Shown here: piece after piece, positions 22,430 through 50,363 of the stretch
Numbering within the stretch: position 1 is the stretch's first letter
How the letters are laid out: each line of letters opens with the position of its first letter
Origin: Octopus vulgaris
Lineage: Eukaryota
Reading direction: 5' to 3'
Assembly (NCBI GenBank): GCA_951406725.2
Contig: OX597818.1
Location: forward strand, 17,980,001 to 18,044,000
DNA length: 64,000 bases
The notes under the pieces: generated by a model
Database searches by the model: none
What the model saw: only the letters and a program-made list of their open reading frames with translations
What the model was told of the DNA's origin: nothing
Position numbers and translations under genes: made by a program

Positions 22430-23346
22430 TTATCGTCTTTTTGCTTTGCCATCAGTAACTCGACCCCACTTCTGCAGCCGTTGCACCAACTGTTTGCTGA
22501 CTGGAGGAATAGGATAAGAATCGCGAATGTGCAGGATACCTTTTTGGATGAAGTTGTAAGTGTTGGTTAGAGTTCTAGGGTATTGCATATTAAACACCCA
22601 ATATGCAGAGAAAAGGGCTGCAAATGCAATGGTGAACTCTTCAAATTCTTGGACAATCTGTTCTTCAGCAACAAGGAAGAACTCGTCGCTTTTGAAAATA
22701 GGACCTTTTGAGAGGAGCATAGGTACAATTCGACCTTTAGGGTCAGGCTCTTCCATGCTCCCTATCTCATAGACCATTTCTGTGAGATTTTCTCGCATAA
22801 GCATTGGTAAAAGGCAGAGTGCAGTGACCATGTCCCAATACTGTCTTAGAGCAACGTTCTCTTCTTTGACTTCACTGGCTTGTTGTAAAATGCCACTGGA
22901 TCCCGGGTAGTTACGAGAAAGATCAATAATGCCACTGGCATATTTGACACAATATTCTTGGATGGTATGGTCAATATCCAAATCTGTAACACGCTGAAAC
23001 TCAACGAGCAACTCCTTGTCAATGAACAAACATGGGTAGGTTTCCTTAATCATGGCAATAGTTGGTGCTTCAATAGTAATGAAGGATCGACGGACATCAA
23101 ATGTATTCTCCATATATAGGCGAATGTCACTGGGAGATTTGCTTTCCATTTCATCCCTTGATGACGAGGACGGCTTCATTTTCTTTTCATTTGGGTAGTC
23201 ATTGTTTTGGTCGGCAGAGTCAAGATCTTGTGAGACACTTGTTGATGGAGTTATGTTGTCAATACTACTAGACTTCCGTTTGCCTCGCTGTGACATCATC
23301 GAAGGACTTAAAATTGGCAACTCCAAACTCTCGTTTTGATATTTGG
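22430..23346 (-). CDS. Terminal coding exon of a SAMD3-C-terminal-domain-like protein (upstream exons not identified)
   Basis: Uninterrupted ~305-codon frame ending in TAA at 22430. Polypyrimidine tract and acceptor ttttctttctttgtattttcag at 23347+ (phase 1). Motifs YMENTFDVRRSFI, IKETYPCL, EFQRVT and AFAALFSAYWVFNMQYP resemble the SAMD3-like C-terminal region (recalled, not searched). Basic NLS-like GKRK and EKKMK are present. Confidence 0.85.
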
Positions 23347-24088
23347 CTGAAAATACAAAGAAAGAAAAACAAAAGTAAGCATTGGTAAAAGAAAAAATGC
23401 ATTAGAATTATTAAAAATAGCTTTAAAGAAACTATGACAATAAACAACTGAAGTAAAACTTTTAATTTTTATGATGTGCAAATTGATATTTCAATAGCAA
23501 AGAAGACAGAACTATTCTTATGAGATACAAAATGACAGAAGATATTATTTAAGTGATTTTACAAATGTTTAAACTAATTTTGTATCATACAGTGTTTGTG
23601 GTATAATTTTGAAGTTCAACTTAACTATTCCGACAGCTTTCCATGCACTTACAATTCACCTCTGATATTAAAACATTCCCTAATCCTGTTCTATGCTATC
23701 ACTCAATTTGCTAAAAATAGCAATCAGATCTCAAATCACACTCTTTAACAAAAAGAGAGGTCACATGAGATGATGAAATCCTAGATGAACACTCGCTGAA
23801 CAGTAAAAGGGAAAAAAATAGAATGAACAAAATTTGAGTGTCTTAGTTCGTAAGTCTACTTGTTCAATGTTGGCTCATGAGGGGGCATAGTGACAAAAAC
23901 AAACACTAAAAAAAAAGGATATTAAAAACATATATATATAGCAACACCAAACACATAGAATATCAAGGTTGCCATTGCAACAATAACAACATCAATGTTA
24001 TTCATAACAACAATCAAAATTGGATAGTTTGATGGTTCTCAGTCATTTGGCAATGAGGATTCAGTTGTTTGATTAATGGAAATACCAT

Positions 24089-25316: not shown

Positions 25317-26842
25317 GATCTATCTTGAAGAATCTATCCGGAATCACAGTGTGGCTTTAGAAGAAGCAGATCAACTATCGATATGATATTCTCCATACGC
25401 CAACTTCAAGAGAAGTCCAGAGAGCAGAAAATGCCATTATATATGGCCTTCATTGATCTAACAAAGGCTTTTGACTCGGTAAGCAGAACAGGCCTCTTCC
25501 TCCTGCTCTAAAAAATTGGATGTCCACCAAAGCTGTTGAGGATCATCAAGTCTTTCCATGATGACATGCAAGGCACCATACAGCACAACGCTTCAACATC
25601 AGCCGCCTTCCAAATAAAAAACGGGGTAAAGCAAGGCTGTGTCCTCGCTCCTACATTGTTTGGCATCTTCTTCTCACTCTTACTTTCACATGCCTTTCAG
25701 ACATCAGATGATGGAGTGTTTCTGCACAGTAGAAGTGACGGGAAACTGTTCAATCTCTCGCACTTGCGTGCCAAGACCAAAATCAGAAACGTCCTGATCA
25801 AGGAGATGTTATTTGCTGATGATGCCGCTCTGGTAACACACACAGAAGAAGCCCTCCAAAGGCTCATTAACTGTTTTGAGCAAGCATGTAACGACTTTGG
25901 CTTAGCTATCAGCCTTAAGAAGACCAACATCATGGGCCAGGCTACATCGAACATCCCAAACATACATATTGGAGACCACAGATTACAAGAGGTGGAGAAG
26001 TTTACCTATCTGGGCTCTACCGTCACCTACAACCTATCCCTTGATGCTGAGCTCAATATATGCATTGGCAAGGCAGCTGCTGTGATGGCCCAACTCTCCA
26101 AATGGGCTTGGGACAACAATAAGCTGACCAAGACCACGAAAATGAAAATCTACCAGGCATGTGTACTCAGCACTCTACTGTATGGAAGTGAGACCTGGAC
26201 GCTATACACATGCCAAGAGCGTCGCCTAAACATCTTTCACCTGCGCTGCCTCCGAAAAATCCTCCGCATCAAATGGCAGAATCATATCCCCAACAAAGAT
26301 GTCCTCAGGCAAGCAGGAATACCAAGCATGTTTGCACTCCTCACACAAAGACGTATGAGATGGCTTGGGCATGTTAGCCGTATGAAAGATGGCAGAATCC
26401 CCAAGGACATACTCTACGGAGAGCTTGCTAGGGGTACTAGGTCTGTGGGTAGACCGATCTTACGTTACAGGGATGTTTGCAAAAGGGATATGAAGGCCTG
26501 CAACATCAATATTAGTGGTTGGGAGGCAGTTGCCGGCAACCGTGGAGAATGGCGACGTACAGTAAAAGAAGGAATACAAAAGAGTGACAGAGAGAGAGAG
26601 GAAAAATGGAAAGAAAGGAAGAGACGTAAACAAGAGACTATGGTACTACAACCAGCCAGGAACAGTCTTCGCTACATTTGCGGTACCTGCCAGGGGGAGT
26701 GTTTGTCCAGGATAGGACTACACAGCCACAGCAGGAAATGTATCAGGACATGAAATATAAAAGCCGGACTAGACTGAAAAAAAAAACAAAAAAAAAACAT
26801 GCGCAACTCCATTGTCTCCCGAGACAGAAAGGATGCCAATAC
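25317..26842 (+). mobile_element. 5'-truncated RTE-clade LINE with target-site duplication
   Basis: RT motifs and a 3' stem-loop tgtctcccgagaca (26813-26826). aatcttgaaga flanks the element at 25306-25316 and 26843-26853. Confidence 0.93.
25329..26753 (+). pseudogene. RTE reverse transcriptase, C-terminal part (one in-frame stop at 25509-25511)
   Basis: RIYPESQCGFR, AFIDLTKAFDSV, GVKQGCVLAPTLF, LFADD, FTYLGS, LLYGSETW, RWLGHV and a C-terminal CxxC..H..C motif. No endonuclease domain. Confidence 0.92.
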
Positions 26843-30863: not shown

Positions 30864-31928
30864 CTCTTTCGTTACCAAACCGCCCAAAGCCACCCGAAAA
30901 AAATTTTGGTTAATGTGACCAAACCGCCCAAAGCCGCCCGAAAAAAATTTTGGTTAATGTGACCAAACCGCCCGTATTTACCTATTCATATTTAAATGAG
31001 AATATCAGAGCAAATCTCTTTAGTACATTCGTGAAAATACATATTATACTTCGTAAACAGTTCAACTACAGTTTTGTACAACAATCGAAGTGTAATTTTA
31101 ATTCTGTGAATTTTGGGAGATTTTTTTCCGAAATTTGTTCCTATTGTATTTTCAAAATTTGTAATTCTGACAAAAAATGGATACGAATTTCATTATATCA
31201 AGCAGCGAGTCAGAATTCGAAGGATTTTCTACTGAAGACCTTCATAAATCTAACTCTATGACTGAAAAAAAAGCATGTGGTATTTGATAATGAATCTGAT
31301 GTTTCATTTTCCGAAAGTGAAAACAGTGAATCCGAGAGCTCCGACAGCGATAAAGAAAATGAATTGGCACCTGAATGGAGTGAAAATTTAAAAACTGTTT
31401 CTTTCGGTGATTTTTCTGAAGAAACTGGACCAAGCCACAGACTTTCCCAGGAGAGTAAAGCTTTAGACTATTTCTTTTTACTTTTTCGAATGAGCCTATT
31501 TGAAATCAATACGGCGGAAACGAACCGTTACGCTAAATGTAAACAAAGCGAAAGAAAGGATAGTTAGTGGTTTCCCACAACCTTAAATGAAATTAAGACT
31601 ATTTTGACATAAATATTATTATGGGTATCAGAAAGTTACCCAGAATAACAAATTTTATCAGCGATGTTTGAACAAAATTTTAATAATTTAAAATTTTGCT
31701 GAATTTACCTGTATCTACCTGCAATTAGAGTCACTTTGTGACAAAAATTATAGTATAGAATTGGTTGAGAATATTTCATTAAATTATCTTCCAAAAATCA
31801 GATTAATATATTGATAAATAAAAAAGTTATAGTTGTTTAATGAAACCAGACTAAATTAATGATTATGTTAGAAATTAATTGAAACACATAAGGGGTGTAT
31901 TTTGGTCAGAAATATAGTAACGAAAGGG
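30864..31928 (+). mobile_element. Non-autonomous piggyBac with N-terminal transposase remnant
   Basis: TTAA|ctctttcgttac ... gtaacgaaaggg|TTAA; 44-bp subterminal tandem duplication. ORF 31277-31567 has an acidic N-terminus then TGPS...LDYFFLLF...AETNRYA, followed by W.PTT.NEIK..MGI.KLP. Confidence 0.92.
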
Positions 31929-44334: not shown

Positions 44335-45569
44335 CAGAGGGTGCAATGTGTAAATTGTTGCTGTTTTATAATTTCAATTTTGTGCATTGTTTGTTTTTGA
44401 TTTTGTTGACTACAGTATAGTAAGGTCAATCGGGCACCATCTGTGAGAAAAACAGTACCATGATGCGATTCACTCTGCTAGAAATTTGGAAACAACATGC
44501 TGTACTGCTTGGCATTCATGCTGGAAGCTCCAATATAAGTGTTTCAGAATGTTCAGGTGTCAATTTGAGGACAGTACAGAGAATTCAGAAAGATTTGGAT
44601 GAGTCTAATGGCGATTACGAAAGCACAGCAACTTTGAAAACTCATTCTAATCGTTCTAATAAGAAACGAACTCCTGAATTTGTTGATGAGATCCAGACCA
44701 TAAATGACAACAATTCCTCCAAGTCAATCAGGTCCATCGCCAGGGACATGGGGATGTCTGAGTTTCTTATCAGGCAGGTAGTGCATGAAGACATTTGGTA
44801 TTCCTCATACAAAATGAAGAAAGGACCAATTTTTATCCCAAGCCATCAAGGACAAGAGGAAAGACCACACTACTTAGCTTTTGAACAAACTAAAGCATCC
44901 CCTCCAACTGGACATGCTTTGGTTTTTCTCAGACGAGAAAAATCTCTGCCAGGATCAGATGCTGAACACACAGAACTGTTAGCTTGCCGTATCCCCAAAA
45001 CATGTACCGAGAGTGATAAAAATCAAACATCCAGCCAACATCATGGTTTTTGGAGAGATCACTAGTGATGACGATGTTATGCCTCCATTCATCTTTCTAC
45101 ACAGCCCAAGACTCAATATGGAAGCCTACATCAAGTGCCTGGAGGAGGTGGTGCTGGAAGACTGTCTGGCAACAAGACTCAATCAGGAAAACCCAGTCAT
45201 GGCTGTCAGACAACTTCTGTGACCACTCCACCCGACTCCTAACATCTGGCCACCAACTTGCCAAACTGCAACCCCCTTGATTGTTATGTGTGGGGAGCAA
45301 CAGACCAACAAAATTCCTTGTAACACCAAAGATGAACTGAAGGCAAAGATTATGGCAGCATTCACCAACTTAAACATGGAGACTGTCCAGAAAAGTTGCA
45401 GGAGATTCCGAAGTAGTCTAGAGACCATGCTTGAAGCTAATGGCGATTTTATTGAATAAATTTACTCTTTAGTATTTCAAGATATTTTTATGTAATTTTG
45501 GTAACTATATCTGTCAATGATATTTTCATTTTTGCATAATTCAGACGACAATTTATTCACCATACCCTG
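44335..45569 (+). mobile_element. Decayed Tc1/mariner DNA transposon (maT/DD37D-like)
   Basis: Imperfect TIRs cag(a)gggtg....taaattgttg / cgacaatttattcaccataccctg, inserted in TA/CA microsatellite. Confidence 0.85.
44460..45459 (+). pseudogene. Tc1/mariner transposase, frameshifted
   Basis: HTH segments VNLRTVQRI and SIRSIARDMG; then FFSDEKN, HPANIMVFG, NIWPP..PNCNPLD..VWG and C-terminal FRSSLETMLEANGDFIE across several frames. The middle catalytic D region appears deleted. Confidence 0.88.
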
Positions 45570-47667: not shown

Positions 47668-47888
47668 CAATGGGCCAGTTTCCTGATTTCTATGACATAT
47701 ACATTCCTTCTTGGACAGGATGTCGGTCTGTTTCAGGATTACTCTTTTTTTACCAGCTGAGTGGACTGGAGCAACATGAAATAAGGTGTTTTGCTCAAGA
47801 ACACAACATATTGCCTGGTCCAAGAATCAAAACCATGATCTTACGATCATGAGTTCAACACCCTAACCACTAAGCCATGTGCCCCCAC
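47668..47888 (-). mobile_element. SINE family C
   Basis: ccagctgagtggactggagcaacatgaaataaggtgttttgctcaagaacacaac...accctaaccactaagccatg. Confidence 0.8.
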
Positions 47889-48792: not shown

Positions 48793-49410
48793 TCCTAGAG
48801 GATACTATTTGATAAAAAGTAAAATGGCCATGGCTGGAACATCTTTGTTTCACAGATCAAAACTTGGGGCTGAATAGCAACATAAAGTAGATACTACCAA
48901 ACAACTTATGATAGTTATTTTAGATATAAACATGTATTAAAAGAAATGCCTTTATCTAATTGAGGTACTTTCCAAATTAATACCAGGTTTATTCTAAAGT
49001 TGATTTAGAAATAACTTGAAGACAAATACCTTTTAGATTTTAGTTGTTTTAGTCATTTGACTGTGACCATTTGGGACATAACTTTGAAGGGTTTATAGTT
49101 TGTATTTTTGTTTTTAAAGCCTAGTACTTACACTGTCACTCTCTTTTGTTGAACTGCTAAGTTATGGGGACATAAATAAACACATACACCCAAAGACATG
49201 CATAGATAGACAGACAGATACACATACACATGTGTACATATACGCATATACACACACATTGAACACTGGGGTCACTGTAATTGACTTACTGCATCCCCTG
49301 AAGTTGCTGGCCTTGTGCCAAAACTTGAAACCATTATTCCCAAATCAAAAGGCTATCTCTAATTCTTGCCTTGTTTACTAGTAAATGGAGAAATCTTCTT
49401 TTTACACATC

Positions 49411-49768
49411 TTTGAGGATGGAAAGTATGATACATTATTTACATTTGACGGATATTTGTCCTCATCTTGTTTGTTGTTAACACAACGTTTCGGCTGATAT
49501 ACCCTCCAGCCTTCATCAGGTGTCTAGGGGAAATTTCGAACCTGGGTTCTCATTCCTAAGGTATTTTTCAATGTTATTATTATTATTATTATTATTATTC
49601 AGGTCACTGCCTGGAATCGAAATCGGAATCTTGGGGTTAGTAGCTCTTAGCCATTACACAATATGCCCGTGGGCATATGGCGTAGTGGTTAAGAGCACAG
49701 GCTACAAACAAGATGAGGACAAATATCCACCAAATGTAAATAACGTACATAATACCTCATCTCTTAAA
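49411..49768. mobile_element. Palindromic element: tRNA-like head + (AAT)n + hammerhead, arms back-to-back (right arm internally deleted)
   Basis: Symmetry centre atatgccc-gt-gggcatat (49661-49678). Outer arms acatttgacggatatttgtcctcatcttgtttg / caaacaagatgaggacaaatatccaccaaatgt. A box tggcgtagtgg on the + arm; B-box-like gatttcgattcc on the - arm. Confidence 0.8.
49479..49524 (-). ncRNA. Minimal type-I hammerhead ribozyme (Penelope-type)
   Basis: Minus strand gacac-CTGATGA-a-ggctg gagggtatat cagcc-GAAA-c-GTT/gtgtt: intact core, 5-bp stem II, stem I gacac/gtgtt, palindromic aacgtt stem III. Confidence 0.7.
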
Positions 49769-50363
49769 TATAGAACTGAGCTAAGTATGATATTTACAGA
49801 ACGTCTGCTGAAGTATAACTGATACCAAGACAAGACACAAAACCATGATGGGAGATGCTGACTTGCATATAGCATGTGAGGATCTCCCCTTTAGTGTGCA
49901 GATGGTTACCCTGGTAAATGATGTTAACTCGTTAGTTGTAAGACATATCTGTATATCTAGGGAAAGTCAGTCTGATCCTAAGAGACTACCATCCTTCACT
50001 TCCTCCTCTTCCAAGCCATACTCTAGGGGCTGGCTTTAAACACTAACAGATGGAAACTGACAGAAACAATTAATATTTCATAATTACAGTTCAATCCAAT
50101 CTCATTCAACACCACAATCATCATTCCTTTCTGCTATTCCCCTAAGTCAAGTGTACCATATTTGATAGTATATAAAATTTTTTTTCTAAAACTGTTTCAA
50201 AAATCATCTCAGGTCCTTCATGAAAAGTTGGGTCTCCAATGTTCTATACTTTGGTGACAGGAAGAGCTCTGGTAGTAAACTATCAGCCTCAATGAATTTT
50301 ATCTGATCCATTACAAGCATGGAAACATGGACATTAAAATGGTAGTGGAAGCAGCAGACGTAC

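What the first reader, a model, noticed from the sequence alone, without database searches (positions are those of the whole stretch)
49411..49768. Palindromic non-autonomous element coupling a tRNA-like Pol III head to a hammerhead ribozyme
Seen: two arms diverge from a centre at 49669-49670. Each arm begins with a tRNA-like head (A box tggcgtagtgg on +, B-box-like gatttcgattcc on -). The intact minus arm continues through (AAT)n into a hammerhead with a perfect CUGAUGA/GAAA core, 5-bp stem II and palindromic AACGUU stem III, with predicted cleavage between 49484 and 49483. Known: minimal type-I hammerheads with palindromic stem III that act as dimers are typical of Penelope-like elements, which often form inverted terminal structures. 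Inference: a SINE-like parasite of Penelope RT, transcribed from its own Pol III promoter and 3'-processed by self-cleavage (a tRNA-headed retrozyme). I do not know this architecture as a standard SINE class.
Basis: partly seen in the sequence, partly recalled or inferred. Interest (0 to 1): 0.8.

Follow-up and report, generated by a model that had tools for sequence, protein, structure and literature searches.

The report
tRNA-headed Penelope end, inserted back-to-back
This mirror-image insertion, in what is likely an octopus genome, joins a tRNA-type start signal to a predicted self-cutting RNA and bears the end marks of Penelope jumping genes, so it is likely the end piece of such an element copied from an uncut RNA rather than a ribozyme-trimmed SINE, and the tRNA-type start is the unusual part.

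Summary
In detail: one intact minimal hammerhead (0 in 60 shuffles), a tRNA-type head, and two arms head to head. This is the published footprint of Penelope-like elements (PLEs). The arms end 53 and about 84 nt past the predicted cut, so the ribozyme does not make the 3' end. Reads show a high-copy family whose head often sits at a palindromic centre. An Octopus bimaculoides gene model carries centre, head and hammerhead in the same order, so this is not chance nesting. Best reading: the terminal repeat of a Penelope-type element that gained a tRNA-SINE head, likely copied twice from uncut RNA starting at the head. Not shown: Pol III transcription, cleavage, a coding partner, or self-propagating short copies. 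tRNA SINE plus hammerhead is known (schistosome Sm-alpha); a tRNA head on a PLE repeat was not found in my searches. This scan noted the same design elsewhere in this genome (e1-8669850). New variant of a known kind; interest 0.5.

The parts
49423..49432 (+). Left copy of a 10-bp target-site duplication (its last 2 bases overlap the end of the minus arm)
   Evidence: longest shared word near both ends; 16 of 20000 random window pairs share a word this long
49431..49669 (-). Full arm, 239 nt: head, (AAT)8, body, hammerhead, 53 nt past the cut; short end, no tail
49600..49669 (-). tRNA-type head of the minus arm; A box decayed (about 49661-49651), 6 nt missing against the + arm, B box 49624-49613
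49574..49599 (-). (AAT)8 repeat, likely the old tail of the SINE that gave the head
   Evidence: sequence; origin inferred
49525..49573 (-). Body between the repeat and the hammerhead
   Evidence: high depth, laid continuously with the hammerhead
49479..49524 (-). Minimal type I hammerhead of PLE type; predicted cut 49484|49483
   Evidence: features as in PMC4209133
49644..49695 (.). Palindromic head-to-head centre (axis 49669-49670)
   Evidence: most reads that cover 49669 carry the base that makes it a perfect palindrome
49670..49705 (+). 5' half of the head on the + arm, with intact A box 49678-49688
49704..49747 (+). 3' part of the repeat, joined to the head at an AC microhomology; about 167 nt of the element are missing
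49748..49778 (+). 31-nt tail present on this arm only (long end)
   Evidence: family depth falls after 49778 and loose ends before 49431 continue into this sequence
49783..49792 (+). Right copy of the 10-bp target-site duplication

Best explanation
This is a single head-to-head insertion, flanked by a 10-bp duplication, of a repeat made of a tRNA-type head and a hammerhead-bearing end; it is likely the terminal repeat (pLTR) of a Penelope/Poseidon-type element, likely copied twice from uncut RNA that starts at the head. Inferred steps: (1) an old tRNA SINE with an (AAT)n tail fused in front of a PLE repeat and now sets the RNA's 5' end, probably as a Pol III promoter. (2) The PLE protein nicks both strands of an AT-rich target about 10 bp apart. 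(3) Reverse transcription starts inside the RNA at two fixed sites, 53 and about 84 nt past the ribozyme cut, giving one short end and one tailed end. (4) Each cDNA runs towards the RNA's 5' end; when it arrives there the two are joined at the head, giving the palindrome; otherwise an arm is 5'-truncated. (5) The + arm lost about 167 nt at a 2-nt microhomology, during synthesis or later. The ribozyme is not used to make this insertion; it would cut only in dimers or with protein help. By analogy with the anole element, inserted short copies would lack the downstream protein-binding site and would be dead ends made from a longer master RNA.
For: Shown here: target duplication (16 of 20000); one-sided 31-nt tail and ends 53 and 84 nt past the cut. 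Published match: inverted copy plus 30-40-bp tail at one end (PMC8557442); 218-bp pLTR, 31-bp tail, 8-10-bp duplications, palindromes at the inverted junction, microhomology deletion (PMC3846280); internal RT starts, the main one 111-118 nt into an ORF whose cut site is at 26, so 85-92 nt past the cut, with uncut RNA as the main template and ORF nt 20-172 needed (PMC11167929). Family data: pieces run unbroken over 49431-49563 across the cut. Depth at 49669 is 69%, 63%, 43% and 48% of depth at 49676 (X23, X24, X1, X5), and 91%, 85%, 59% and 71% of it has the base that perfects the palindrome. 7 of 15 listed joints and 10 of 12 listed rows of table 5c link a variable break in the body (14 different places, 49448-49542) to the head start in inverted orientation. 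Independent locus: XP_052825882.1 (O. bimaculoides) starts with 9 residues that match the centre plus head (7 of 9, best in six frames of 64 kb; 0 of 300 shuffles reach 7), followed directly by the hammerhead frame (22 of 23). A sister family shows the same two ends: 20 long, 11 short, 16 not scored, of 47 hits.
Against: No RT-coding partner was found: the frame that crosses the hammerhead gave 2 hits among 3 candidates and 47 hits, none long and RT-like (longest 413 aa; no RT domain in the 5 hits scanned); a second frame gave none. Past the long end the hits share no continuation. Continuity of head, (AAT)n and body in other copies is not shown directly: the repeat cut the reads, and a protein query that spans it found 0 of 43 candidates. 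The joints have short sides (22-32 letters), were laid at 85% likeness, and 385 and 246 rows were not shown; SINE insertions into an abundant repeat could give some of them. The body is about 4-8 times deeper than the head, so most copies lack the head. How far the palindrome extends in other copies is unknown (few reads reach 49650-49660). No read data bear on Pol III or cleavage: both directions are equal and no molecule ends pile up. Lack of TTTT in the arms is weak (140 of 946 stretches). Core CpG sites decay as much as flank CpG sites (49487 and 49491 against 49449 and 49538, all about 23-30% in RNA reads).
Confidence: 0.55

Rival explanations
1. A true self-propagating SINE of Penelope: each full short copy is read by Pol III, reads through the uncut ribozyme into flanking DNA, and is itself used as template by a PLE protein in trans.
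For: A and B boxes at 45 nt; no TTTT in either arm; fixed 5' end at the head; no coding continuation found; non-autonomous PLE families exist (MRC1; retrozymes).
Against: In the anole element the template needs about 55-60 nt beyond the long start site, which inserted copies would lack; that is one distant family and in vitro. An earlier unchecked note reports a coding element behind such a repeat (e1-8669850).
Confidence: 0.22
2. The head is a fixed passenger in the repeat: the element is read by Pol II from a start near the head, and the A/B boxes are a fossil.
For: PLE promoters described so far lie in the pLTR and are Pol II-like. Two Octopus gene models use this repeat as a first coding exon. 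A long AT-rich ORF could hardly be read by Pol III (general knowledge).
Against: The family keeps a canonical B box (about 95% of reads at 49622) and exact box spacing, and arms stop at the head's first bases.
Confidence: 0.13
3. One reading: a Pol III RNA trimmed at its 3' end by the hammerhead and then copied (tRNA-headed retrozyme).
For: Intact core downstream of the head; precedent of Sm-alpha. The + arm's 3' piece starts 9 nt past the cut, which a cleavage product could give.
Against: Both arms and the family extend 53-84 nt beyond the cut; no step in depth or pile-up of ends at the cut; only one hammerhead, no head-to-tail array; cleavage was not needed for the anole protein.
Confidence: 0.04
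4. Chance nesting or a one-off template switch: short tRNA SINEs landed in, or were captured by, a Penelope stub at this locus only.
Against: One target duplication encloses both arms; two heads meet at the exact centre; the same order recurs in another Octopus species; many joints end at the head start.
Confidence: 0.04

Closest known systems
Endonuclease-bearing PLEs of the Penelope/Poseidon clade: Adineta Pen2a (PMC3846280), anole Poseidon_Ac (PMC11167929); overview in PMC8557442
   Same: Hammerhead in a repeat of about 200-270 nt, head-to-head inversion with a palindromic junction, 31-nt tail on one end, 8-10-bp target duplication, long end about 85 nt past the cut.
   Different: The repeat begins with a tRNA-type A/B-box head and (AAT)n instead of a TATA/Inr-like promoter; no ORF is present here and none was linked.
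Minimal type I hammerheads of animal PLEs (PMC4209133)
   Same: Full core, extra base between 9 and 10.1, G10.1-C11.1, 5-bp helix I, palindromic 15.2-16.2; opposite-strand pairs 100-700 bp apart are mentioned there.
   Different: Helix II is 5 bp here (7-8 in the schistosome motifs); only one arm keeps the motif; cleavage untested.
Schistosome Sm-alpha / Sj-alpha SINE-like elements (seen through PMC6765202, PMC2770079, PMC8490949; original papers not read)
   Same: tRNA-derived Pol III promoter followed by a hammerhead in a non-coding repeat.
   Different: Those are described as tandem repeats whose ribozyme frees monomers; no Penelope footprint is described in the passages read. Here the motif is the minimal PLE type, the arms are inverted, and the ends lie past the cut.
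Animal non-LTR retrozymes (PMC7229834; bioRxiv 10.64898/2026.07.22.740005)
   Same: Non-coding, hammerhead-bearing, thought to derive from PLE repeats.
   Different: Defined by head-to-tail arrays with a ribozyme in each unit and circular RNA; said to lack promoters (PMC7761336). Neither fits this locus.
Helenus / TRIMp3 (PMC10886601, abstract and passages)
   Same: A tRNA-derived Pol III promoter built into the terminal repeat of a retroelement that is not a LINE, proposed to arise by SINE insertion.
   Different: Those depend on LTR retrotransposons (PBS, PPT, 4-5-bp duplications) and have no ribozyme.

Membership tests
Minimal type I hammerhead of PLEs | CUGANGA and GAAA core with helices I and II and a UH cut site | tested here: met
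Minimal type I hammerhead of PLEs | Extra base between 9 and 10.1, G10.1-C11.1, palindromic helix III | tested here: met
   against PMC4209133
Minimal type I hammerhead of PLEs | Core conserved over flanks, covarying stems | tested here: inconclusive
   core CpG sites decay like flank CpG sites, as expected of dead copies; no DNA alignment of copies could be built
Minimal type I hammerhead of PLEs | Self-cleavage as a dimer or with protein | not testable with these tools
   no pile-up of RNA ends in two RNA-seq runs, which is uninformative
EN+ PLE insertion (Penelope/Poseidon type) | Inverted head-to-head copy | tested here: met
EN+ PLE insertion (Penelope/Poseidon type) | 30-40-bp tail at one end only | tested here: met
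   31 nt; two ends in sister family
EN+ PLE insertion (Penelope/Poseidon type) | Short target-site duplication | tested here: met
   10 bp
EN+ PLE insertion (Penelope/Poseidon type) | Repeat attached to an RT plus GIY-YIG ORF | tested here: inconclusive
   no such protein; no genome held; searches were short-query and weak
tRNA-derived SINE | A and B boxes at tRNA spacing | tested here: met
   box consensus recalled; boxes are split between the two arms in this copy
tRNA-derived SINE | Head recognisable as a given tRNA | tested here: inconclusive
   no call by ARAGORN down to 70% threshold or by Rfam; a likeness to tRNA-Arg is recalled, not tested
tRNA-derived SINE | Many dispersed full-length copies with a fixed 5' end | tested here: inconclusive
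   fixed head start and high depth, one independent locus; full continuity not shown
tRNA-derived SINE | Pol III transcription; short copies act as templates | not testable with these tools
   needs 5'-end mapping and subfamily analysis
Non-LTR retrozyme | Head-to-tail array with a hammerhead in at least two units | tested here: not met
   one hammerhead in 64 kb; arms inverted; definition
Non-LTR retrozyme | Circular RNA from cut to cut | not testable with these tools
   no suitable data
Sm-alpha-like SINE | Tandem units released by the ribozyme | tested here: not met
   ends lie 53-84 nt past the cut

The most novel reading that the evidence does not exclude
Penelope-like elements have their own SINE class: a tRNA promoter fused to the Penelope terminal repeat makes short Pol III RNAs that the Penelope protein copies from two internal starts, and both cDNAs run to the Pol III start and join there, flooding octopus genomes with head-to-head palindromes that form edited double-stranded RNA and supply new first exons to host genes.
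Probability: 0.3. Interest if true: 0.7.

Novelty: new variant of a known kind. Interest (0 to 1): 0.5.

Why it matters
The insertion shape and the ribozyme are known. The tRNA-type head on a Penelope repeat is the new part. If it is a working Pol III promoter, PLEs join LINEs (SINEs) and LTR elements (TRIMp3) in having tRNA-promoted passengers. It also gives a test for an open question: how PLE head-to-head inversions arise. Here the RNA's 5' end is marked by the head and cDNAs stop there, which favours two cDNAs from uncut sense RNA over self-priming on antisense RNA or copying of a circle. That argument is inferred and needs full copies from an assembly.

Tried and rejected
No whole genome is held, so no copy count, consensus or covariation test was possible. 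Pattern scans found 0 matches in viral contigs and 0 in two metagenome scans. A second laying of reads, meant to test head-to-tail linkage, gave no result; that test stays open. Rfam gave 6 chance matches and no hammerhead or tRNA. ARAGORN found nothing in the window, on the minus head or on a composite head. Look-ups of earlier findings by sequence found nothing, so I cannot say that e1-8669850 is the same family. A hammerhead motif was absent from the supplements held for PMC13282606 and PMC8557442; the first holds no repeat library. Protein searches found no RT-bearing continuation. Reading stem II covariation from the translated hits was dropped: the residue changes seen are also what CpG decay gives. 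Rejected: the 113-aa + strand ORF 49481-49822 as a gene (repeat-derived; no homologue for its first 56 residues); the mir-885 match on the palindrome (18.7 bits against 66).

Full report
1. Observation. A descriptor scan of both strands of the 64-kb window finds one type I hammerhead, on the minus strand, core starting at 49519, and none in 60 shuffles. Stem I is 5 bp, stem II 5 Watson-Crick bp, helix III is the palindromic minimal form, there is one extra A after the core, and the predicted cut is 49484|49483. Cervera and de la Pena list the extra base, G10.1-C11.1 and the palindrome as marks of PLE hammerheads (PMC4209133, parts 1-2 of 4 read). A 48-nt piece folds with stems I and II; a 66-nt piece prefers another fold (z -1.25). 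The centre is a strong hairpin (z -5.9, 0 of 200 shuffles). The arms match 21 of 25 in the head and 41 of 44 near the ends. The A box is intact on the + arm, the B box lies on the - arm, and their distance in a composite of the arms is 45 nt, like several SINE heads elsewhere in the window. The box consensus is recalled. ARAGORN and Rfam do not call it a tRNA, so 'tRNA-type' rests on the boxes and spacing.

2. A 10-bp direct repeat flanks the whole unit (49423-49432, 49783-49792); 16 of 20000 random pairs of window pieces share a word that long. The + arm carries 31 nt (49748-49778) beyond the point where the - arm ends. The + arm lacks about 167 nt between head and 3' part, at an AC microhomology. 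The arms end 53 and about 84 nt downstream of the predicted cut. So both arms went in as one event, and the 3' ends are not the cut.

3. The family. No genome is held and the contig collections hold no match. Of 24 listed runs, 20 hold the stretch or part of it, 15 with half of the words or more, under four organism labels plus two small-share metagenomes. Four runs were laid. The part 49431-49563 is very deep and is laid in unbroken pieces across the cut. The head is about 4-8 times shallower (X23 about 2100-2200 against 420-640 per direction; X1 10.2 million against 1.2-1.6 million); edge effects and the skipped repeat inflate this. Loose ends before 49431 continue into the tail sequence, and depth falls after 49778. 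About 95% of reads have the canonical B-box base at 49622. Depth at 49669 is 69%, 63%, 43% and 48% of that at 49676 (X23, X24, X1, X5), and most of it (91%, 85%, 59%, 71%) has the base that makes the centre a perfect palindrome; few reads reach 49650-49660, where this copy is decayed, so the length of the palindrome elsewhere is unknown. Of 15 listed joints 7, and of 12 listed rows in table 5c 10, join a break in the body (14 different places) to the head start in inverted orientation; 385 and 246 rows were not shown, sides are 22-32 letters and likeness was set at 85, so this is moderate evidence. The repeat cut the reads, so head-repeat-body continuity in other copies is not shown. A second laying gave no result.

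4. Independent loci through proteins. The frame that crosses the hammerhead found two named gene models. XP_029651560.2 (Octopus sinensis) starts with 36 residues of body plus hammerhead (32 of 36), with a residue where this copy has a stop. XP_052825882.1 (O. bimaculoides, dystrobrevin isoform) starts with 9 residues whose best match in all six frames of the window is the centre plus head (7 of 9; 0 of 300 shuffles reach 7), followed by the hammerhead frame (22 of 23). That is a second locus, in a named species, with centre, head and hammerhead in the same order; its middle is missing, by deletion or splicing, and I could not see its DNA. A wider search gave 47 hits. Many belong to a sister family; its last unit stops at a long end in 20, at a short end in 11, and 16 of 47 were not scored. 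None is a long RT-like protein, and they share no continuation past the tail. A second frame and an antisense frame across the repeat found nothing. The host is therefore likely an Octopus species.

5. Mechanism. The footprint matches endonuclease-bearing PLEs. Craig et al. describe an inverted 5'-truncated copy and a 30-40-bp tail at one end (PMC8557442, passages). Adineta Pen2a has a 218-bp pLTR, a 31-bp tail and a 9-bp duplication, relatives have 8-10 bp, palindromes at the inverted junction and a microhomology deletion (PMC3846280, passages). For the anole element, reverse transcription starts inside the RNA at two sites that bound the tail; the main one is 111-118 nt into the ORF, whose cut is at 26, so 85-92 nt past the cut against 84 here; uncut RNA is the main template; ORF nt 20-172 are needed; the ribozyme cuts only with protein (PMC11167929, parts 1-2 of 4 read). 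I infer two cDNAs, one from each nicked strand, begun at the two sites on uncut RNA and run to the RNA's 5' end. Arms that stop at the head's first bases need an RNA that begins there; a cut-to-cut circle or a long RNA entered from its 3' repeat would not stop there. A Pol III start is the simplest cause. If the anole rule holds, short inserted copies lack the binding site past the tail and are dead ends of a longer master. That step and the promoter are untested.

6. Evidence against. No coding partner was found. Most family copies lack the head. Core CpG sites decay like flank sites, which fits dead copies but gives no sign of selection. Lack of TTTT in the arms is common by chance (140 of 946). 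The two RNA runs show both directions equally and no pile-up of ends, so they say nothing on Pol III or cleavage.

7. Comparison and novelty. A Pol III, tRNA-derived SINE with a hammerhead is described for schistosomes (PMC6765202, PMC2770079, PMC8490949, passages; the original papers were not read). Retrozymes are head-to-tail arrays (bioRxiv 10.64898/2026.07.22.740005, part 1 of 5 and passages; PMC7229834 and PMC7761336, passages), which this is not. Helenus puts a tRNA promoter in an LTR (PMC10886601, abstract and passages). A tRNA head on a PLE repeat did not appear in the listings, nor in the passages read from them; most listed papers were seen as listings only. PMC13282606 (passages and one supplement) and PMC4824008 (passages) do not describe it in what I saw. 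The library lacks most subscription papers, the octopus SINE paper of Ohshima and Okada 1994 was seen only as a citation, bioRxiv supplements are closed, and Repbase and Dfam could not be searched, so the family may already have a name.

8. Earlier notes. e1-8669850 reports the same design elsewhere in this genome and calls it the end repeat of a coding PLE. It moved me from 'SINE' to 'pLTR' and gave two papers. I confirmed the geometry here but not the coding partner, and could not confirm that it is the same family.

9. Verdict. Real feature, PLE-type insertion, new variant by its tRNA-type head. Interest 0.5.

Noticed in passing
window 49250-49900, runs X23 and X24: RNA reads differ at 26 A>G and 26-27 T>C places against 7-8 and 5-6 in DNA contigs (for example 49533 A>G in about 24% of reads, under 0.5% in DNA). 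This looks like A-to-I editing on both strands; the runs are not from the same individual.
   Followed up: partly
XP_029651560.2 (P0001) and XP_052825882.1 (P0002): Two Octopus gene models use this repeat as their first coding exon and both leave it at the same codon, next to a GT at window 49443-49442 on the minus strand; possibly a reusable splice donor.
   Followed up: partly
P0006-P0051: A sister family (three of its hits looked up are from ENA assemblies) has 43-codon head-to-tail units that restart at the hammerhead, and the same short and long ends. Its 5' part was not examined for a tRNA-type head.
   Followed up: partly
window 49485: About 8% of RNA reads but about 0.3% of DNA depth lack 3 bases in helix III of the hammerhead; a variant subfamily or one highly expressed copy.
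   Followed up: no
P0024: One predicted protein reads through tail and hammerhead in antisense and then in sense, so it is another head-to-head insertion, apparently without the head.
   Followed up: no
window 25512-26753 (+): 413-codon open frame with a reverse transcriptase domain (PF00078, E 3e-14); looks like an RTE-type LINE fragment (type recalled), not a PLE.
   Followed up: partly
window 22430-23401 (-): 323-codon open frame with no Pfam match.
   Followed up: no
window 44424-45065 (+) and 31262-31567 (+): Open frames that look like DNA-transposon remnants; weak HTH_23 match for the first.
   Followed up: no
window 7064, 12945, 38005, 47884, 55057, 57119, 57376, 60283 and 38538, 51547, 60419: Copies of other tRNA-type SINE families with A-to-B spacing of 42-46 nt (47884); the one at 47884 shares 19 of 21 bases with this head but has another body.
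   Followed up: no
window 49250-49338: End of another high-copy repeat that is followed by (ATT)n in other copies; unrelated neighbour.
   Followed up: no
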